From the IMG/VR virus record IMGVR_UViG_3300028558_000016, positions 406,014-470,013 of that record: a stretch of 64,000 bases of DNA; one strand, given 5' to 3'. Every line of letters starts with the position of its first letter. Position 1 is the stretch's first letter. The position numbers and the translations under genes are program-made. The notes beneath the pieces are model-generated. The model worked only from the letters and a program-made list of their open reading frames with translations, was not told the DNA's origin and ran no database searches. Positions 7,902 to 13,492 of this stretch are shown here, in pieces. The stretch is from a virus.

Positions 7902-7984
7902 ACGTCGGTGTCCGAGCGGTCAAAGGTAGCGGTCTCCAAAACCGCGGAGTTTCTCCATCGTGGGTTCGAATCCTACCCGGCGTG
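7902..7984 (+). tRNA. tRNA-?(CCA): class II (long variable arm) tRNA with anticodon CCA, decoding UGG; G73 discriminator; Ser/Tyr-like body
   Basis: Acceptor ACGTCGG/CCGGCGT (one G·U); D region TCCGAGCGGTCAAAGG typical of Ser/Tyr/Leu; anticodon arm GCGGT-CTCCAAA-ACCGC; variable-arm hairpin GGAG-TTT-CTCC; T arm GTGGG-TTCGAAT-CCTAC. Confidence 0.6.
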
Positions 7985-8005
7985 CAAAAATTAAAAGAAG
8001 AAAAC

Positions 8006-8360: not shown

Positions 8361-8450
8361 GGTGCAGGTATCCAAGGGGTTGAAGGGACCAGGCTGTGGA
8401 CCTGGTTGAAGCGAAAGCTGAACACGCGAGTTCGAATCTCGTCTTGCACC
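8361..8450 (+). tRNA. tRNA-His(GTG): tRNA-His-like (anticodon GTG) with G-1 and C73 but an unusually long variable region (about 89 nt)
   Basis: G-1 plus acceptor GTGCAGG/CTTGCAC and C73; anticodon arm CCAGG-CTGTGGA-CCTGG; extra hairpin AGC-GAAA-GCT before T arm GCGAG-TTCGAAT-CTCGT. Confidence 0.5.
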
Positions 8451-8456
8451 CACATG

Positions 8457-8530
8457 TGGATTGTAGCTCAATGGTAGAGCGCTGGTTTGTGGAACCAGAT
8501 ATGCGGGTTCGATCCCCGTCTTTCCAACCA
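8457..8530 (+). tRNA. tRNA-His(GTG): tRNA-His (anticodon GTG), class I, encoded CCA; acceptor stem with two U·U mismatches
   Basis: D arm GCTC-AATGGTA-GAGC; anticodon arm CTGGT-TTGTGGA-ACCAG; T arm GCGGG-TTCGATC-CCCGT; 3' ACCA; acceptor TGGATTG/CTTTCCA. Confidence 0.6.
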
Positions 8531-8539
8531 AAAGAAGCA

Positions 8540-9172
8540 ATGATGAAAGAGTTAAAGTTAGATAGCACGTACAAAGGAACGAGAATTCTTGTAGGAAACG
8601 AGAAGCGTGGAATGATCAATGACATGGTCATGATTTTATTGAATCAAGGCTTCACTGAGATTTCCATTCCGATCATTCAGTTGCAAGAAACATTTGCAGG
8701 AAAGGTTGGAGAAGAAAATAACAATCTAATGTTCAATTTTAAAGATCGTGGAGAAAGGAATGTTTGCTTGGCTCCTGAATACACAGCAGTGATTCAACAA
8801 TTGGCAAAGACGAAATACAAACAAGAAAAGGACGTAAAGCTTTTCTATGTGCAAGAATGTTTTAGAGGAGAAAAGCCTCAAGCAGGAAGATACAGACAGT
8901 TTACTCAATTTGGAGTTGAAATTTTAAATCCAAAGAAAGAAACTATGGAAGGATTAAAAGAATTAGCCGTCAGCCTTTTGTCCGGTTATGATTTCAAATT
9001 CAACGTCAACAGTGATGTGACGAGAGGTTTGGATTATTACAAGGACGGAAAAGGATTTGAGATCACATGCGATGAGCTTGGATCAAGCAAACAGATTTGT
9101 GGTGGAGGTTCTTATGAAGGTGGAATGGGTTTTGCAATTGGAATTGATAGGATATTAAAAACACAGTCATGA
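8540..9172 (+). CDS. compact histidyl-tRNA synthetase-like protein (class II catalytic core, about 210 aa; no anticodon-binding domain)
   Basis: Motif 2 CFRGEKPQAGRYRQFTQFGVEIL (compare HisRS FRhERPQkGRYRQFhQ); motif 3 CGGGSYEGGMGFAIGIDRIL; N-terminal GTRILVGNE...EISIPIIQLQETF matches HisRS motif 1; about half the length of canonical HisRS. Confidence 0.75.
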   Translation: MMKELKLDSTYKGTRILVGNEKRGMINDMVMILLNQGFTEISIPIIQLQETFAGKVGEENNNLMFNFKDRGERNVCLAPEYTAVIQQLAKTKYKQEKDVKLFYVQECFRGEKPQAGRYRQFTQFGVEILNPKKETMEGLKELAVSLLSGYDFKFNVNSDVTRGLDYYKDGKGFEITCDELGSSKQICGGGSYEGGMGFAIGIDRILKTQS

Positions 9173-9900
9173 AATATTTAGTAGGAATACAGCCAACAGG
9201 AAAGATCCATATTGGAAACTATATGGGTTGCTTAGCAAAGGGGTTGAGATACCAGGAGCAGGGACACGAAGTAACGTTTCTCATTGCCAACTATCACAGC
9301 ATGACGACAGACTCATACTCTGATGTGACTGAGAAGGAATTGAGAATGCTTGGATGCAAGAACATTGTGCACCAGACTCCGGCTTACACTGAATTGTTCT
9401 TCAAGCTTTGTTGCAAGATGAACCTTGGAGTTTTGCAGAAGATGCCTCAGTACAAGGATAAAAAGGAAAGTGTTGATTTCGATATGGGGATTCTTTTATA
9501 TCCAGTTCTAATGGCAGCAGACATCATCATGAATGATCCTGATGTTGTGTTGGTTGGAAGAGACCAGGTTCCACACATGGAATTGACGAACGATATTGCA
9601 AAAAGAGTTGGAGTAACAAAGAGGTTTGAATACGAGCTTGGGGATGTTGAAAAGGTGATGTCGTTAATTGATCCAACAATGAAGATGTCAAAGTCATCTG
9701 GCGAAGCTCACGTGCTTTACCTATTTGACGAGGATTACAGTAACAAATTGAAAAGAGCAAACATGAACGGAGAAGGACTCATTAATATACAAAAGATAGG
9801 AGACTTCTTTGGAATAGAAAGAAACGATATGAATTCCATATACAAAGAAAATATAGCAATAAAACTGTCATCGGTGTTCGGCACCGTCCCGGTGACTTAA
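9169..9900 (+). CDS. compact tryptophanyl-tRNA synthetase-like protein (class Ic; 243 aa; C-terminal anticodon-binding region truncated)
   Basis: GIQPTGKIHIGNYMG matches the TrpRS N-terminus (SGxQPSGelTIGNYxG); YPVLMAADI; VGRDQVPHMELTNDIAKR; KMSKS at residues 172–176; ATGA overlap with the HisRS-like stop. Confidence 0.75.
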   Translation: MKYLVGIQPTGKIHIGNYMGCLAKGLRYQEQGHEVTFLIANYHSMTTDSYSDVTEKELRMLGCKNIVHQTPAYTELFFKLCCKMNLGVLQKMPQYKDKKESVDFDMGILLYPVLMAADIIMNDPDVVLVGRDQVPHMELTNDIAKRVGVTKRFEYELGDVEKVMSLIDPTMKMSKSSGEAHVLYLFDEDYSNKLKRANMNGEGLINIQKIGDFFGIERNDMNSIYKENIAIKLSSVFGTVPVT

Positions 9901-9922: not shown

Positions 9923-10007
9923 GGGCGTGTACCGGTGGAATCTTATACATTCTATACCCGTAGTCTGGTCGTTGAAAACGGGGGTTCAAATCCCTCCACG
10001 CCTACCA
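9923..10007 (+). tRNA. atypical tRNA-like gene (no recognisable D arm; anticodon-like hairpin with TAT; encoded CCA)
   Basis: Acceptor GGGCGTG/CACGCCT; T arm GGGGG-TTCAAAT-CCCTC; 3' ACCA; the only 5+7+5 hairpin is GGAAT-CTTATAC-ATTCT; a 26-nt extra segment precedes the T arm; 85 nt in total. Confidence 0.4.
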
Positions 10008-10011
10008 AATT

Positions 10012-10050
10012 TAGCTTCATGAATTATGATATATAGTTCATGAAGCATTT
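10012..10050 (+). promoter_or_regulatory. 9-bp inverted repeat spanning the start codon of the downstream ORF
   Basis: CTTCATGAA-TTATGATATATAG-TTCATGAAG; the ATG of ORF 10040 lies in the 3' arm. Confidence 0.4.
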
Positions 10051-10576
10051 ACAGACATATCAGCAGCTTAACGAGAGCATGATAGATTCCAATTTGAAGA
10101 AGGAATTTGCATTTACCCTAAAACAAATGGATGAAATTTCCAATGCAATACTCAATGCAAAAGATTTCAAGAACAGGGTAAAGCTTATGAAGAAAGAAAA
10201 CCCAGATATTGGAAAAGCTATGGGAGATTACAAAGAATATCTTGATCTCGCCACCAAGGTGCAAAAAATAGTAAAACAAATTAGATCAAAAGGACTTTCT
10301 TCAGACAGAAGAAAAGCGACTAAACAATTGAGAGCCATCCAGGGGTTTTCTGGTACACTTAAAACAGTTTTCGATAATTTGAATAAGTTTGATAAAAAAA
10401 CCAAAAAGGGTTTTGAAAGCAACGAAGGAATAGCAACCATCATTGGAAATACATTAAGAAATATATTGACTGGTCAGTTCATAGTTAACATATTAAAAAC
10501 CATAAAAGGAAATTTAATGGATTCACAAGCAGAACTAACTACTGTGCAAGATGTATTTGATATAAAAGATTATTAA
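10040..10576 (+). CDS. hypothetical protein (178 aa); the N-terminus MKHLQTYQQLNE weakly resembles the MKHIKLFE leader family
   Basis: ORF with a loosely similar N-terminal motif. Confidence 0.45.
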   Translation: MKHLQTYQQLNESMIDSNLKKEFAFTLKQMDEISNAILNAKDFKNRVKLMKKENPDIGKAMGDYKEYLDLATKVQKIVKQIRSKGLSSDRRKATKQLRAIQGFSGTLKTVFDNLNKFDKKTKKGFESNEGIATIIGNTLRNILTGQFIVNILKTIKGNLMDSQAELTTVQDVFDIKDY

Positions 10577-10577
10577 T

Positions 10578-10817
10578 ATGCAAAAGATTAAGGACGCTTT
10601 AAAATGGATGGTTTGTACCAAGCTTGGATGGTTGATAATATCATTCTTATGGATTGGTGTGTTCATGATAATAAACGATAACATAGAATCTGGATGGGCC
10701 TTTTGGGTTGCAATTCCAGGATTCGCATACATCATAGGTTTATTCCTTGTCATGATGTTTTATGCGGTAAAGAATACGATAGGAGACATAAAAGAAAATA
10801 GAAATGAAAAATCTTAA
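10578..10817 (+). CDS. small membrane protein (2 predicted TM helices)
   Basis: Hydrophobic stretches WLIISFLWIGVFMII and FAYIIGLFLVMMFYAV. Confidence 0.45.
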   Translation: MQKIKDALKWMVCTKLGWLIISFLWIGVFMIINDNIESGWAFWVAIPGFAYIIGLFLVMMFYAVKNTIGDIKENRNEKS

Positions 10818-11100
10818 AAAGTTCGGTGAGTTAAACGAGGGTGGATTAGGTTATGAAAACAACAAAACGCTTCCTCCATCTGGGACACACATAAAATATG
10901 TTGCTGACACAACAGATCCAAAGACCAAAAAAATTCTCAAGATTATTTGGAATTCATGGGACGAGGCAAAAAGGAAACAGATGCTTAACAAAATGGGACA
11001 CAGCGAAAAGTATTTTGATGCTTCTTTTGAAGACCTGACAGGAGAGATCCAAGGAAAGATCGTAATGCTTGATGCCTCATTGCCAGAAAACAAGCGATAA
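10804..11100 (+). CDS. MKHIKLFE-leader family member on the + strand (N-terminus MKNLKKFGELNE)
   Basis: N-terminus matches the MKNIKxFxELNE sub-variant found in the 62–64 kb array. Confidence 0.5.
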   Translation: MKNLKKFGELNEGGLGYENNKTLPPSGTHIKYVADTTDPKTKKILKIIWNSWDEAKRKQMLNKMGHSEKYFDASFEDLTGEIQGKIVMLDASLPENKR

Positions 11101-11140
11101 AATAAATTTTTTAGTTTCAAATATAATACCTATATTTGTA
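11101..11140 (+). promoter_or_regulatory. Bacteroidota-type promoter; copy 2 of the conserved module
   Basis: AATAAATTTTTTAGTTTCAAATATAATACCTATATTTG, with a −7-like TATATTTG at 11131–11138. Confidence 0.6.
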
Positions 11141-11338
11141 AAAGATTAAGAAACAAAGAAAACCGCAAGGTATATAAGATACAAATGATGAATACAGTAA
11201 ATATTACCCGAATTATTAGGATTAGACGCAGATCAGCGACTCGCCTGGGTAGTATTATTTTATCATGAAAGTTTTAAGGATTTAGAAAACTATGAATGGA
11301 ATAAGCCCAGGACGAAAGTTCTGGGCTTTTTTCATTTT
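11141..11338 (+). ncRNA. candidate about 190-nt small RNA with a 6-codon mini-ORF; paralogous to the 7.6-kb element
   Basis: Promoter followed by AAGGTATATAAG, then a mini-ORF ATGAAAGTTTTAAGGATTTAG at 11265–11285, then terminator AGCCCAG-GACGAAAGTT-CTGGGCT followed by TTTTTT. Confidence 0.4.
11306..11338 (+). terminator. rho-independent terminator
   Basis: AGCCCAG...CTGGGCT stem followed by TTTTTT. Confidence 0.7.
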
Positions 11339-11382
11339 AAAAATATCGAAAATGAAATGGTTTAAGAAATTACAGGAAATAA

Positions 11383-11466
11383 CGGCACGTACTCAGACCA
11401 TCCTGATAAGATGGATAACTTGTAGCGGTGTTGCAAACGTGGGTTCAAATCCCTCCGTGCCGACCA
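11383..11466 (+). tRNA. atypical tRNA-like gene (anticodon-like hairpin GAT; no recognisable D arm; long extra segment; encoded CCA)
   Basis: Acceptor CGGCACG/CGTGCCG perfect; hairpin CCATC-CTGATAA-GATGG (canonical Ile-GAU loop); only 6 nt between position 9 and the hairpin; 24-nt extra segment; T arm GTGGG-TTCAAAT-CCCTC; ACCA end. Confidence 0.4.
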
Positions 11467-11737
11467 TGAAAAATATGTTGTATAAAACCGCAAGAAGGTC
11501 GTTGTCAAAAAAGACAAACAGACATTTGAGACAAACCACGTTTCTCTACGAGATGTGTGGAAATGATTTTCAAAAGCTGTTAAAGGTGGAAGAGAGATTG
11601 AAAAATTATTTTCTCTTTTATTGTCCAGGCGATCCTGAAGAAGTGGAAAAAGTTTTGGCATTGCCTGAAAAATTTTTATTGAACGATAAGAAGTGGCAAG
11701 ATGGATCAAAATATTTTTGCTTAGAAGAATTTTACGA

Positions 11738-11811
11738 CGGAATGTAGCTCAGTTGGTTAGAGCACCCGCCTGATACGCGGTAGGTCGGCAGTTCGAATCT
11801 GCCCATTCCGA
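11738..11811 (+). tRNA. tRNA-Ile(GAT): tRNA-Ile (anticodon GAT), canonical cloverleaf
   Basis: Acceptor CGGAATG/CATTCCG; D arm GCTC-AGTTGGTTA-GAGC; anticodon loop CTGATAC; T arm GGCAG-TTCGAAT-CTGCC. Confidence 0.75.
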
Positions 11812-11814
11812 CAG

Positions 11815-11960
11815 ATGTCCTTAGCTCAGTGGTTAGAGTATTATGCTGATAAAAGGTTTTAGATCTTGTAATGGAAAAATATCACGGCTCATAACCGTGG
11901 TACCAAAACAAAAATTTAAAATGCACATAAGGGTCGGTGGTTCGAATCCATCAGGACATG
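11815..11960 (+). tRNA. tRNA (Ile-GAT-like) interrupted by an about 72-nt insertion in the anticodon loop
   Basis: Acceptor ATGTCCT/AGGACAT perfect; D arm GCTC-AGTGGTTA-GAGT; anticodon-stem halves TTATG ... CATAA separated by 72 nt that begin CTGATAA and contain the hairpin CACGG-CTCATAA-CCGTG; T arm GGTGG-TTCGAAT-CCATC. Confidence 0.5.
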
Positions 11961-11969
11961 CATAAAAAT

Positions 11970-12043
11970 GCCCGCGTAGCTCAACTGGATAGAGCACCTG
12001 ACTACGGATCAGGAGGTTTAGAGTTCGAATCTCTACGTGGGTA
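11970..12043 (+). tRNA. tRNA-Arg(ACG): tRNA-Arg (anticodon ACG)
   Basis: D arm GCTC-AACTGGATA-GAGC; anticodon arm CCTGA-CTACGGA-TCAGG; T arm TAGAG-TTCGAAT-CTCTA. Confidence 0.75.
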
Positions 12044-12047
12044 CATT

Positions 12048-12121
12048 GGTTTTGTAGCTCAATTGGATAGAGCAATTCCGTCCTAAGGAAAAGGTTATAG
12101 GTTCGAGTCCTATCAAGATCA
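12048..12121 (+). tRNA. tRNA-Arg(CCT): tRNA-Arg (anticodon CCT)
   Basis: D arm GCTC-AATTGGATA-GAGC; anticodon loop GTCCTAA; T arm ATAGG-TTCGAGT-CCTAT; acceptor GGTTTTG/CAAGATC with two G·U pairs. Confidence 0.65.
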
Positions 12122-12126
12122 CAAAT

Positions 12127-12199
12127 GCCTGCGTAGCTCAGTGGACAGAGCGCCGGTCTTCGGAACCGGGCGTCGGGAGTTCGAATCTCTCCGTGGGTA
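12127..12199 (+). tRNA. tRNA-Arg(TCG): tRNA-Arg (anticodon TCG)
   Basis: D arm GCTC-AGTGGACA-GAGC; anticodon arm CCGGT-CTTCGGA-ACCGG; T arm GGGAG-TTCGAAT-CTCTC. Confidence 0.75.
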
Positions 12200-12223
12200 C
12201 TGAAGTAAAATGGAATTAAATAT

Positions 12224-12313
12224 GCCCGTGTAGCCGAGGAAGTTTTCTAAACTTTTATCCGTAATTGGAGCTGCGTCTCACGACTAATGGGGGTTCGAAT
12301 CCCTCCACGGGTA
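12224..12313 (+). tRNA. atypical tRNA-like gene (anticodon-like hairpin TCT; no recognisable D arm; 33-nt extra segment; 90 nt)
   Basis: Acceptor GCCCGTG/CACGGGT; hairpin GAAGT-TTTCTAA-ACTTT; T arm GGGGG-TTCGAAT-CCCTC; same architecture as the elements at 9923 and 11383. Confidence 0.4.
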
Positions 12314-12328
12314 CTTAAAATTAAAGTT

Positions 12329-13492
12329 ATGAAAATTGATATTGATAAAATAAAACAGATCCCCAAAGAGATTTCGGAAGAATTTGGGATGTGCGTCTAT
12401 GGACCAATCTCAGATGAGATTAAGGCATGGATGGAATTCCATGGTATGCAATCGCAAAACATGGGAAATTATACAAACATCTATACAGATAAAAACATTA
12501 TTGATCTGTTCAATAAACCAGAACCATTTGAATACATCGATGGGTTCAGTCCAAACCTAAACAAGAATCTTCACATTGGACACTTCTCAAATTTAGTTCT
12601 TGCAAAGGCTTTCGTCTCTCTTGGAATAGCAAAGAAGACTGTGGCAATATTGGGAGACACGTTAGAAGGGGATGTTTCAAAGGAAGATGCGTTGAACAAC
12701 TACAATGAGATATGTGAGAAATTCTCATACCCCGTAGATAAGATGTTCATGGCTTCTGAAATGGAATCTGATTACAACCTCGTGGATGGTGTTCATGAAT
12801 ATGAAGGAACCAAAGTGTTCTATCTTGATACGCCATTAGTTGGAATCAAAAGCGATGGGTCAACAACATATTTCTATCAGGACGTTGCATTGGCACAAAA
12901 ATTAAATGCTCCAACATTATATCTTACAGGAAGCGAACAGAACGGACATTTCAACAGCTTAAAGGAAATGTTTCCTAAAATAAAGCACATTGGACTTGGA
13001 CTTGTAAAAGCAAAAGGAGGAAAGATGTCAAGCAGACTCGGAAATGTTATTTGGATGCAAGATGTCATCGATGAAATGATGAGCAACTTTCAAGACGAAA
13101 AAGTGTGCTATAATGTTTTTGCAGGATTTATTTTGAAATCAACTCCTAAGTCTGAAAAGAACATAGACATATATCAATTGGACAATCCATTGAATTCACC
13201 TGGATTGTACTTAAGCTATACGTTAGCAAAACTAAAAAGCGCTGGAGTGAAATGTGAAGGAAAAACATTCACCTCTCAAGATCTTCAATTCAAATACATG
13301 AAGGCCTTGAACTCTCTTTCTCCAAATATTTTGCTTGAAGGTTTAATTGATCATGCAAAGAAGATAAGCGGTTTATACATCACTCACAAGATAAAAGATA
13401 ATGCGGTGAACCAGTCCATGTTTGAAATATTGGGTTCAGATTTATTATTAGGAATGAGCCTCCTGGGTTTATTTGATGTTGACAAGGTTTAA
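12329..13492 (+). CDS. compact arginyl-tRNA synthetase-like protein (class I; 388 aa versus about 570 aa canonical)
   Basis: HIGH motif SPNLNKNLHIGHFSN; ArgRS-specific KMSSRLGN in place of KMSKS (compare ArgRS kkMSTRkG) followed by ...QDVIDE; starts 16 nt after the last tRNA-like gene. Confidence 0.7.
   Translation: MKIDIDKIKQIPKEISEEFGMCVYGPISDEIKAWMEFHGMQSQNMGNYTNIYTDKNIIDLFNKPEPFEYIDGFSPNLNKNLHIGHFSNLVLAKAFVSLGIAKKTVAILGDTLEGDVSKEDALNNYNEICEKFSYPVDKMFMASEMESDYNLVDGVHEYEGTKVFYLDTPLVGIKSDGSTTYFYQDVALAQKLNAPTLYLTGSEQNGHFNSLKEMFPKIKHIGLGLVKAKGGKMSSRLGNVIWMQDVIDEMMSNFQDEKVCYNVFAGFILKSTPKSEKNIDIYQLDNPLNSPGLYLSYTLAKLKSAGVKCEGKTFTSQDLQFKYMKALNSLSPNILLEGLIDHAKKISGLYITHKIKDNAVNQSMFEILGSDLLLGMSLLGLFDVDKV

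What the first reader, a model, noticed from the sequence alone, without database searches (positions are those of the whole stretch)
9923..12313. Three tRNA-like genes sharing a non-canonical architecture (acceptor, anticodon-like hairpin with no D arm, 24–33-nt extra segment, T arm)
The elements at 9923–10007, 11383–11466 and 12224–12313 all have good acceptor pairing and T arms of the form GGGGG/GTGGG-TTC(A/G)AAT-CCCTC. Two encode CCA. Only 5–7 nt lie between position 9 and a 5+7+5 hairpin whose loops are CTTATAC (UAU), CTGATAA (GAU) and TTTCTAA (UCU). A long unstructured segment follows. The T-arm and 3' halves are near-identical, which suggests a common origin. Canonical tRNAs with GAU and UCU anticodons exist in the same cluster, so these may be D-armless tRNAs, decoys for anticodon nucleases, processing by-products or regulatory tRNA-like RNAs.
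Basis: seen in the sequence. Interest (0 to 1): 0.6.

Follow-up and report, generated by a model that had tools for sequence, protein, structure and literature searches.

The report
Phage tRNAs with a rewired core
The three elements are real genes of a widespread, so far unannotated class of phage tRNA(Ile) and tRNA(Arg), in which the anticodon arm sits inside the D stem and the D loop is moved downstream, giving a three-armed rather than four-armed tRNA.

Summary
E1 (9923-10007) has anticodon UAU, E2 (11383-11466) GAU and E3 (12224-12313) UCU. The interpretation "no D arm plus unstructured segment" is wrong. About 231 distinct relatives were found in IMG/VR, GTDB and GenBank phages. Covariation across them shows that the 5-6 nt after U8-A9 pair with two blocks of the "extra" segment, forming a 4-5 bp D-like stem that encloses the anticodon arm. 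Between the two blocks lies a D-loop-like bulge, U-A-R-(N)-G-G-N. Its R covaries without exception with the Y just 5' of the T stem (G:C 59, A:U 31), like the Levitt 15:48 pair. Anticodons are almost only Arg and Ile. The base after GG is A in 89 of 89 Arg members, matching the ArgRS determinant A20. The discriminator is A in all 74 Ile members. Members usually hold the only copy of their anticodon in the local tRNA array. In Pseudomonas phage PA11 the member is the only tRNA-like gene. The best reading is working elongator tRNAs with a rearranged D/anticodon domain. ARAGORN and published annotations miss them. Ten literature searches found no prior description. Folding into an L shape, charging and decoding remain untested.

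The parts
9923..10007 (+). E1: rewired tRNA-Ile(UAU) gene, with discriminator A10004 and encoded CCA at 10005-10007
   Evidence: Rfam tRNA 33.8 bits. Family model R1 51.8 bits. Ortholog in LR756502.1 at L006 6980-7059 has the same anticodon.
9932..9935 (+). E1 D-like stem, 5' strand. The pairs are C9932:G9971, C9933:G9960, G9934:C9959 and G9935:C9958.
   Evidence: The equivalent columns covary in the Ile class: 10:48, 12:37 and 13:36.
9937..9953 (+). E1 anticodon arm GGAAU-CUUAUAC-AUUCU; anticodon UAU at 9944-9946
   Evidence: Read from the sequence. The stem covaries across the family.
9958..9979 (+). E1 3' strand of the D-like stem (9958-9960 and 9971), D-loop-like bulge UAGUCUGGUC (9961-9970) and connector UUGAAAAC (9972-9979). 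G9963:C9979 is the Levitt-like pair.
   Evidence: The R:Y pair is 100% G:C or A:U in 90 distinct sequences. Alignment to R1.
9980..9996 (+). E1 T arm GGGGG-UUCAAAU-CCCUC
11383..11466 (+). E2: rewired tRNA-Ile(GAU) gene, with discriminator A11463 and encoded CCA at 11464-11466. The final A is also the A of the next ORF's ATG.
   Evidence: Rfam tRNA 37.4 bits. R1 46.3 bits. Ortholog at L006 17726-17804.
11392..11396 (+). E2 D-like stem, 5' strand. The pairs are C11392:G11430, C11394:G11422, A11395:U11421 and G11396:U11420. U11393 is unpaired.
   Evidence: By homology to the covarying columns of the Ile class. The assignment in E2 itself is an inference.
11398..11414 (+). E2 anticodon arm CCAUC-CUGAUAA-GAUGG; anticodon GAU at 11405-11407
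11420..11438 (+). E2 3' strand of the D-like stem (11420-11422 and 11430), D-loop-like bulge UAGCGGU (11423-11429) and connector UUGCAAAC (11431-11438). G11425:C11438 is the Levitt-like pair.
11439..11455 (+). E2 T arm GUGGG-UUCAAAU-CCCUC, with one U-U mismatch
12224..12313 (+). E3: rewired tRNA-Arg(UCU) gene, with discriminator A12313 and no encoded CCA
   Evidence: Rfam tRNA 34.7 bits. R1 70.4 bits. Relatives at L006 17810-17888 and in Maribacter phage Panino at L007 3997-4076.
12233..12236 (+). E3 D-like stem, 5' strand. The pairs are G12233:C12271, C12234:G12270, C12235:G12261 and G12236:C12260.
   Evidence: Columns 10:48, 11:47, 12:38 and 13:37 of A2 are 95-100% paired, with G:C, A:U, C:G and U:A types. 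RNAalifold predicts the same pairs independently.
12239..12255 (+). E3 anticodon arm GAAGU-UUUCUAA-ACUUU; anticodon UCU at 12246-12248
12260..12288 (+). E3 3' strand of the D-like stem (12260-12261 and 12270-12271), D-loop-like bulge UAAUUGGA (12262-12269; A12269 corresponds to A20) and connector 12272-12288. The connector carries a 10-nt insertion at about 12274-12283. A12264:U12288 is the Levitt-like pair.
   Evidence: The R1 alignment places the extra 10 nt as an insertion in the connector. A follows GG in 89 of 89 Arg members.
12289..12305 (+). E3 T arm GGGGG-UUCGAAU-CCCUC

Best explanation
E1, E2 and E3 are genes for working elongator tRNAs: tRNA-Ile(UAU), tRNA-Ile(GAU) and tRNA-Arg(UCU). 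They belong to a phage-borne tRNA class with a rearranged D/anticodon domain. The order of elements is: 7-bp acceptor strand, U8-A9, 5' strand of a D-like stem, complete anticodon arm, 2-3 nt that pair back to the D-like 5' strand, a bulge with D-loop sequence (U-A-R-Y-U-G-G-N), 1-2 more pairing nt, a 7-8 nt connector (UGAAAAY or UUGAAAAY) that stands in for positions 26 and 44-48, a normal T arm, and the acceptor 3' strand.

The secondary structure is therefore a three-way junction made of the acceptor stem, one long D-plus-anticodon arm, and the T arm. The usual tRNA is a four-way cloverleaf.

Shown here: the helices by covariation, the relocated Levitt-like R:Y pair, the GG, isotype-specific nucleotides (A after GG in Arg members, A73 in Ile members), the restriction to Arg and Ile anticodons, and the way members fill an otherwise empty anticodon slot in phage tRNA arrays.

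Inferred, not shown: the bulge GG docks on the T loop and the molecule folds into an L of normal dimensions; RNase P and 3' processing or CCA addition act through the unchanged acceptor/T domain; ArgRS and IleRS charge it; EF-Tu and the ribosome use it to read AGA/AGG, CGN and AUH codons, which these A+T-rich phages use heavily.

Why the core is rewired is unknown. Escape from a host or phage tRNA-targeting enzyme is a possibility that was not tested.
For: 1. Structure of the Arg class. On a gap-free alignment of 38 Arg-type members that was not fitted to any structure, 95.8% of cells are paired, against 63% in shuffles and 38-48% when partners are slid. Pair 10:48 is GC 23, AU 14, CG 1. Pair 11:47 is CG 28, UA 4, AU 2, UG 2. 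Pair 13:37 is GC 32, AU 4, CG 1, GU 1. RNAalifold predicts the same nested helices on its own.
2. Structure of the Ile class. With 31 sequences, 99% of cells are paired. Pair 12:37 is GC 16, AU 15. Pair 13:36 is GC 15, UA 8, AU 6.
3. Tertiary signature. The R after U-A covaries with the Y just 5' of the T stem: G:C 59, A:U 31, and no exception in 90 distinct sequences.
4. Anticodons. Among 247 distinct model hits, about 231 are rewired: UCU 68, UAU 52, GAU 44, ACG 28, UCG 26, CCU 6, CAU 3-4, GCG 2, CUU 1.
5. Identity nucleotides. The base after GG is A in 89 of 89 Arg members, and U 63, G 9, A 2 in Ile members. The discriminator is A in 74 of 74 Ile members. The window's own canonical Arg tRNAs also have GGA, and its canonical Ile and Met tRNAs have GGU. 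That A20 is the major ArgRS determinant and A73 an IleRS determinant is established knowledge.
6. Decoding slot. Only 26 of 167 members have a canonical tRNA of the same anticodon in their locus. The baseline for canonical tRNAs in these loci is 395 of 2031.
7. Pseudomonas phage PA11. Its only tRNA-like gene is a member with anticodon UCU. AGA plus AGG make up 43% of its Arg codons.
8. Codon use in the window. AGA is 65% of Arg codons and AUA is 33% of Ile codons.
9. Orthologs in LR756502.1 keep the anticodons while the stems change in a compensatory way.
Against: There is no expression, processing, charging or decoding data for any member. The one published phage small RNA I checked, PAK_P3 sRNA2, is not a member.

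The L-shaped fold is inferred from sequence signatures only. The D-like stem has reversed strand polarity relative to the anticodon stem compared with a normal tRNA, so its fit to aaRS, ribosome and modification enzymes is unproven.

In this window E2 and E3 duplicate canonical GAU and UCU tRNAs, so here they are not needed to complete a decoding set.

Members were collected with sequence patterns derived from the family. The Arg/Ile restriction could therefore partly reflect shared descent of one motif lineage. A20 and A73 could be partly inherited rather than selected.

Pairs U8:G50 and A9:U49 are invariant, so covariation cannot test them.
Confidence: 0.8

Rival explanations
1. The RNAs are non-decoding decoys or sponges. 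They display an Ile or Arg anticodon loop and tRNA-like surfaces to absorb a host tRNA-targeting defence (an anticodon nuclease or a tRNA-modifying toxin) or to titrate a host factor, but they are not used on the ribosome.
For: In this window E2 and E3 coexist with canonical GAU and UCU tRNAs. The isotype range is narrow, which would suit a nuclease with narrow specificity. The unusual core might hinder ribosome use.
Against: Across loci the members usually hold the only copy of their anticodon: 141 of 167 have no canonical twin. In PA11 the member is the only tRNA-like gene. The conserved A20, A73, Levitt-like pair, GG and full acceptor/T domain are what charging and EF-Tu need, and exceed what an anticodon-loop decoy would need.
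Confidence: 0.08
2. The RNAs are charged tRNAs, but with a non-cognate amino acid or by a dedicated phage synthetase. That would make them recoding or orthogonal tRNAs, like the proposals for allo-tRNAs.
For: Miniature aaRS genes sit next to the elements in this window. The ArgRS-like ORF at 12329-13492 starts 16 nt after E3. Allo-tRNAs from metagenomes also favour AUA and AGA anticodons (PMC5389517).
Against: Most carriers are small phages with no aaRS seen, for example PA11 at 49.6 kb. Cognate identity nucleotides are conserved by isotype. There is no long variable-arm hairpin for SerRS, and the acceptor/T configuration is 7/5 rather than 8/4 or 9/3.
Confidence: 0.05
3. The RNAs are regulatory or otherwise non-translational tRNA-like RNAs, for example primers, processing signals or aaRS regulators.
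For: tRNA-like elements serve such roles in other systems (general knowledge). E2 lies just after an intrinsic terminator (11303-11338) and abuts an ORF start.
Against: Nothing requires this reading. Conservation of the anticodon loop (U33, purine 37 and a specific anticodon kept between orthologs) and placement inside tRNA arrays argue for a tRNA role.
Confidence: 0.04
4. The elements are decaying tRNA pseudogenes or chance tRNA-like sequence.
For: Generic tRNA scores are low (33-37 bits) and ARAGORN is negative.
Against: Hundreds of diverged members keep every helix through compensatory changes, and 0 of 500 shuffles reach the observed covariation. The family occurs in phages of Pseudomonas, Vibrio, Caulobacter, Maribacter and many uncultured hosts.
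Confidence: 0.01

Closest known systems
Canonical class I elongator tRNA (Rfam RF00005), specifically bacterial and phage tRNA-Arg and tRNA-Ile
   Same: It shares the 7-bp acceptor stem with discriminator, and the 5-bp T stem with UUCRAAU loop. It shares the 5-bp anticodon stem with a 7-nt loop carrying U33 and A37. U8-A9 is present. The D-loop sequence is A-R-Y-U-G-G-(A/U), as in the window's own canonical tRNAs. There is an R15:Y48-type covarying pair. A20 is present in Arg members and A73 in Ile members.
   Different: There is no D hairpin between position 9 and the anticodon stem. The anticodon arm is nested inside the D stem. The D loop is a bulge on the 3' strand, downstream of the anticodon arm. 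The result is a three-way rather than a four-way junction, and the polarity of the D-stem strands relative to the anticodon stem is inverted.
D-arm-lacking mitochondrial tRNAs (metazoan mt-tRNA-Ser(AGY), nematode mt-tRNAs; reviewed in PMC7609411)
   Same: A short connector replaces the D hairpin between the acceptor and anticodon stems. An extended anticodon helix has been proposed for some of them.
   Different: The mitochondrial tRNAs have lost the D-loop nucleotides and the G18G19/T-loop contacts, have short variable regions and are flexible. Here the D-loop nucleotides, the Levitt-like pair and a canonical T arm are all retained, only relocated. The molecules are also longer than normal (77-90 nt) and occur in phages of bacteria.
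Allo-tRNAs and (8/4) tRNA-Ser and tRNA-His of bacteria and phages (Mukai et al. 2017, PMC5389517); class II tRNAs with long variable arms
   Same: These are unusual tRNAs of 80-90 nt found in phage and metagenome tRNA clusters. They carry extra sequence between the anticodon and T arms, and allo-tRNAs favour AUA and AGA anticodons.
   Different: Those tRNAs keep a D arm, have a self-paired variable-arm hairpin, and often have 8/4 or 9/3 acceptor/T stems. Here the configuration is 7/5, and the extra segment pairs with positions 10-13 rather than with itself.
tRNA-like domain of tmRNA
   Same: An acceptor/T minihelix is joined to one long helix, and a GG-containing loop docks on the T loop. Some tmRNA 3' ends even match the search pattern (Nitrospira hits). 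There is a weak tmRNA hit on E1 (21 bits).
   Different: tmRNA has no anticodon loop, carries alanine identity (G3:U70), places its D-loop analogue 5' of the long helix, and depends on SmpB. The Rfam tmRNA score is far below the gathering threshold (21 against 47).

Membership tests
tRNA (RF00005, canonical cloverleaf) | 7-bp acceptor stem followed by a discriminator base | tested here: met
   97.9-99.5% of cells are paired, and all 7 pairs show changes on both sides.
tRNA (RF00005, canonical cloverleaf) | T arm: 5-bp stem and 7-nt loop UUCRANY | tested here: met
   96-98% of cells are paired. The loop is UUCAAAU or UUCGAAU in E1-E3.
tRNA (RF00005, canonical cloverleaf) | Anticodon arm: 5-bp stem and 7-nt loop with U33 and purine 37 | tested here: met
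   E1-E3 meet it. Position 37 is A in all but 3 of the 163 parsed members. U33 was a criterion of the parser, so it is not an independent result for that set.
tRNA (RF00005, canonical cloverleaf) | D arm as a hairpin between position 9 and position 26 | tested here: not met
   Only 5-6 nt lie there. Rfam aligns the elements only by deleting the D arm. ARAGORN fails on them.
tRNA (RF00005, canonical cloverleaf) | Core tertiary signatures: A14, R15:Y48, G18G19 | tested here: met
   They are present, but in a relocated bulge. The R:Y pair is G:C 59 and A:U 31 with no exceptions, and GG is invariant. The physical contacts themselves cannot be tested here.
tRNA (RF00005, canonical cloverleaf) | Rfam gathering score of 29 bits | tested here: met
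   33.8, 37.4 and 34.7 bits.
tRNA (functional definition) | Aminoacylation and use in decoding | not testable with these tools
   Only indirect support: identity nucleotides, slot filling, and the sole tRNA-like gene in PA11.
D-armless mitochondrial-type tRNA | D arm replaced by an unpaired replacement loop, with D-loop/T-loop contacts lost | tested here: not met
   The linker is base-paired with downstream sequence, and a D-loop-like GG bulge is conserved.
Allo-tRNA / (8/4), (9/3) tRNAs | 8/4 or 9/3 acceptor/T configuration and a long self-paired variable arm | tested here: not met
   The configuration is 7/5. No covarying hairpin was found inside the extra segment.
Intron-containing tRNA gene | Removing one contiguous insert restores a cloverleaf | tested here: not met
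   Excising the hairpin removes the only anticodon arm, and no other excision yields a D arm plus an anticodon arm. This is by inspection and of the alignments.
tmRNA | Rfam tmRNA model, tag reading frame, G3:U70 | tested here: not met
   21 bits against a gathering score of 47. The acceptor sequences vary freely.

The most novel reading that the evidence does not exclude
This is a previously unrecognised tRNA architecture: a three-way junction with the anticodon arm nested in the D stem. It is used for real decoding by many phages, including cultured Pseudomonas, Caulobacter, Vibrio and Maribacter phages. On this reading its rewired core is an adaptation. It would make phage tRNA-Arg and tRNA-Ile invisible to, or uncleavable by, a tRNA-targeting host defence or a phage-encoded host-shutoff nuclease, while the RNA still satisfies ArgRS or IleRS, EF-Tu and the ribosome.
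Probability: 0.25. Interest if true: 0.92.

Novelty: new variant of a known kind. Interest (0 to 1): 0.8.

Why it matters
The cloverleaf is among the most conserved RNA folds. The known exceptions are truncated mitochondrial tRNAs, tRNA-Sec and allo-tRNAs. A tRNA that keeps all core nucleotides but connects them in a different order would show that the L shape can be built from another topology. It would also give a natural test case for what aaRSs, EF-Tu, RNase P, modification enzymes and the ribosome really need from the D domain.

There is a practical consequence too. Standard tools miss or down-score these genes. ARAGORN calls overlap 21 of 218 instances. The TC6 paper (PMC6209634) reports "no intact tRNA genes". 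The genes are unannotated in PA11, PAK_P2, Ccr10, D419 and Panino. Phage tRNA repertoires and codon-compensation analyses are therefore incomplete for Arg and Ile. Cultured carriers such as PA11 and TC6 on P. aeruginosa make the question directly testable. The scaffold could also interest genetic-code engineering.

Tried and rejected
- I looked for a conventional or intron-containing cloverleaf in E1-E3. None exists.
- A MAFFT alignment of four members (A1) was unusable. I replaced it with gap-free seeds of equal length (A2, A6).
- My first idea was that the extra segment forms its own D-like mini-hairpin (UAGC-GGUU-GUUG). I dropped it. It fails in the Arg class (A-C mismatches), and the unbiased column-pair scan found no covariation for it. 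It found 10:48, 11:47 and 13:37 instead.
- A simple "extended anticodon stem only" model explains 12-14:36-38 but not the 10-11:47-48 pairs.
- Class II tRNA, allo-tRNA and tmRNA assignments were rejected (see the membership test).
- The search for related loci with the ArgRS-like protein found nothing. With the TrpRS-like protein it gave one locus with no tRNAs.
- The ArgRS-like ORF has no phmmer hit in the PDB, so the idea that it lacks the D-loop-binding domain could not be tested.
- Cellulophaga phage phi40:1 has no clear member.
- I checked PAK_P3 sRNA2 as possible expression evidence. It is a different, larger tRNA-like gene and not a family member.
- Many GTDB pattern hits are false positives. 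The recurrent Nitrospira hits look like tmRNA 3' ends by inspection.
- The sigma-70 promoter scan was uninformative.
- Ten literature searches found no description of this architecture (one search failed on syntax). Absence from the searchable library is not proof of novelty.

Full report
**Context.** The window resembles the 634-735 kb uncultured phage genomes LR756501-4 and LR745206. I take these to be the huge phages of PMC7162821; that link is an inference from the matching record length. The region holds a tRNA array interleaved with miniature aaRS genes. These are a HisRS-like core at 8546-9172, a Trp/TyrRS-like gene at 9169-9900, and an ArgRS-like gene at 12329-13492.

**Checking the observation.** The three elements are exactly as described. 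Each has a 7-bp acceptor stem, U8-A9, a 5-6 nt linker and a 5+7+5 hairpin. The hairpin loops are CUUAUAC, CUGAUAA and UUUCUAA. A further 24-33 nt follow, then a canonical T arm. E1 and E2 encode CCA.

ARAGORN reports none of them. Rfam's tRNA model reaches 33.8-37.4 bits only by deleting the D arm and inserting 21-30 nt before the T arm. Single-sequence folding is not distinctive, with z-scores of -0.8 to -1.8.

**Relatives.** LR756502.1 carries orthologs of all three. Each keeps the same anticodon while the acceptor and anticodon stems differ by compensatory changes. LR745206 has a UCG member. The cultured Maribacter phage Panino has a UCU member inside its tRNA cluster, under a "hypothetical protein" annotation.

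Four pattern scans of IMG/VR, built on the conserved 3' half, returned well over 200 loci. A simple parser extracted 163 distinct well-formed members.

**The structure.**
- In a gap-free alignment of 38 Arg-type members (A2), positions 10-11 pair with two nucleotides 3' of a GGA motif, and positions 12-13 pair with the two nucleotides that precede a conserved U-A.
- The counts are: 10:48 GC 23, AU 14, CG 1; 11:47 CG 28, UA 4, AU 2, UG 2; 12:38 invariant C:G; 13:37 GC 32, AU 4, CG 1, GU 1. Pair 14:36 forms in only about half the sequences.
- Overall 95.8% of cells are paired. Shuffles give 63% and slid registers give 38-48%.
- An unbiased scan of all column pairs found these same pairs. RNAalifold predicted them independently. 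It also added the invariant pairs U8:G50 and A9:U49 and a sixth anticodon-stem pair.
- The Ile class has a 5-nt linker and behaves the same way. Pair 12:37 is GC 16, AU 15; 13:36 is GC 15, UA 8, AU 6; 10:48 is CG 27, UA 2, AU 1.
- The 8 nt between the two 3'-strand blocks read U-A-R-Y-U-G-G-A/U. That is the D-loop sequence of the window's own canonical tRNAs: AACUGGA and AAUUGGA in its Arg tRNAs, AGUUGGU in its Ile tRNA.
- The R of this bulge covaries with the pyrimidine just 5' of the T stem. The counts are G:C 59 and A:U 31, with no G:U and no mismatch in 90 distinct sequences. This is the behaviour of the Levitt pair 15:48. The search patterns allowed any R/Y combination, so they did not impose the correlation.

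So the "extra segment" is not unstructured. It supplies the 3' strand of a D-like stem, a displaced D loop, and a 7-8 nt connector equivalent to positions 26 and 44-48. The connector tolerates insertions, as a variable loop does. E3 carries 10 extra nt there.

The anticodon arm caps the D-like stem, so the molecule is a three-way junction. The stack from anticodon loop to junction has roughly the same number of layers as the anticodon stem plus augmented D helix of a normal tRNA. That comparison is my inference.

**Family model.** A covariance model built from A2 scores E3 at 70.4, E1 at 51.8 and E2 at 46.3 bits. Canonical tRNAs score 25 bits or less. Across the IMG/VR loci the model finds 247 distinct hits, of which about 231 are rewired. 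Many loci hold two to four members.

**What they are.**
- Anticodons are UCU 68, UAU 52, GAU 44, ACG 28, UCG 26, CCU 6, GCG 2, CAU 3-4 and CUU 1. These are essentially only Arg and Ile.
- The nucleotide after GG is A in 89 of 89 Arg members, but U 63, G 9, A 2 in Ile members. All 74 Ile members have discriminator A. A20 and A73 are established ArgRS and IleRS determinants.
- Members are embedded in dense tRNA arrays.
- Only 16% of members share their locus with a canonical tRNA of the same anticodon. The duplication rate among canonical tRNAs in these loci is 19%. The members therefore behave like ordinary occupants of a decoding slot.
- Pseudomonas phage PA11 (49.6 kb, 44.8% G+C) has a single tRNA-like gene, and it is a member (UCU, 89.4 bits). 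ARAGORN finds nothing in that genome. AGA and AGG together make up 43% of PA11's Arg codons, and these codons are rare in its GC-rich host (established knowledge).
- In the window, AGA is 65% of Arg codons and AUA is 33% of Ile codons.

**Distribution.**
- One pattern scan of 185,579 GTDB species genomes gave 86 stretches, of which about 25 are true members. Nearly all are in metagenome-assembled genomes (Saprospiraceae and other Bacteroidota, Deltaproteobacteria and others). One is in the isolate Bradyrhizobium sp. BR13661.
- The ten of these loci I scanned with Rfam hold dense arrays of tRNA genes and no rRNA. This points to phage or mobile-element origin rather than core host tRNAs.
- In GenBank phages, members confirmed with the model occur in PA11, vB_PaeM_Ty, PAK_P2, Caulobacter phage Ccr10 and Vibrio phage D419, and Panino is a further carrier. 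All are unannotated.
- BLAST suggests many more Vibrio and Pseudomonas phages carry one. I did not verify these individually.

**Comparison with known kinds.**
- The elements fail the defining D-hairpin feature of the cloverleaf but keep its tertiary signatures.
- They are not mitochondrial-type D-armless tRNAs, because the linker is paired and the D-loop nucleotides are retained.
- They are not allo-tRNAs or class II tRNAs, because the configuration is 7/5 and there is no variable-arm hairpin.
- They are not tmRNA, which scores only 21 bits.
- They are not intron-containing genes.
- A 2020 review of non-canonical tRNAs (PMC7609411) and ten full-text searches gave no description of this arrangement.

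**Limits.** No expression or charging data exist. The 3D fold is inferred. Sampling relied on family-derived motifs, so other isotypes using different motifs could have been missed. Relatedness among sequences inflates shuffle-based statistics, although the slid-register control and the many independent pair types argue strongly for the helices. The E-values from the short calibration are rough. The reason for the rewiring remains open.

Noticed in passing
window 11815-11960: This is a 146-nt tRNA gene (Rfam 48.7 bits) with a 74-nt insert after CUGAUA in the anticodon loop. The insert folds into a long hairpin capped by CACGG-CUCAUAA-CCGUG, which itself looks like an anticodon loop (CAU). The insert is too short for a group I intron. 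Similar over-long tRNA genes occur in relatives (L002 7935-8052 and 10988-11098, L006 4573-4675, L273 3898-4054).
   Followed up: partly
window 7902-7985: This 84-nt tRNA has the class II shape: a Tyr-like D arm (UCCGAGCGGUCAAAGG) and a long variable arm. Its anticodon is nevertheless CCA (Trp). A 243-aa Trp/TyrRS-family gene lies at 9169-9900.
   Followed up: no
window 8362-8451 and 8457-8530: A 90-nt tRNA-His(GUG) with a long variable arm sits directly before a canonical tRNA-His and a 208-aa HisRS-like catalytic core (8546-9172). It may relate to the (8/4) tRNA-His that Mukai et al. 2017 described in phages.
   Followed up: partly
window 8546-9172, 9169-9900, 12329-13492: Three miniature aaRS-like genes are interleaved with the tRNAs. 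The ArgRS-like ORF (387 aa; Pfam hit only to part of the catalytic domain; no PDB sequence hit) starts 16 nt after E3.
   Followed up: partly
L001 9411-9680; L003 7863-8043; L004 7386-7651; L329 (Caulobacter phage Ccr10) 309-491: Related huge phages and phiCbK-like phages carry 82-91-nt tRNAs with Lys, Asn or Thr anticodons and long variable arms. This is another non-standard tRNA class in the same arrays.
   Followed up: no
L332 (Pseudomonas phage PAK_P3, KC862299) about 1808-1935: The published abundant late 'sRNA2' of PAK_P3 lies inside a tRNA-like gene of about 128 nt. It has a perfect 7-bp acceptor pairing (GCUGUGU/ACACAGC), a T arm and a large internal insert. It is not a member of the rewired family (below 10 bits).
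   Followed up: partly
L064 11003-11080; L032 11809-11885; L140 4321-4397; L141 4187-4267; L221 4887-4964; L035 4408-4487: These are rare members of the rewired family with other anticodons: CUU (Lys), CAU (Met or lysidine-Ile) and GCG (Arg).
   Followed up: no
window 11303-11338: A strong intrinsic-terminator-like hairpin (11 bp followed by a T run) lies 45 nt upstream of E2. The last A of E2's CCA is the A of the ATG of the next ORF (11466-11747).
   Followed up: no
L330 (Vibrio phage D419, OZ195672) 1494-1573: The record's tRNA locus tags jump from TRNA_0009 to TRNA_0011 around the unannotated rewired tRNA-Arg(ACG). A prediction at this spot may have been dropped during annotation.
   Followed up: no
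L327 1059-1511 (PA11) and L328 1589-1954 (PAK_P2): HNH homing-endonuclease genes lie immediately next to the rewired tRNA gene in two unrelated Pseudomonas phages. In PA11 the annotated CDS overlaps the 5' end of the tRNA gene by about 27 nt.
   Followed up: no
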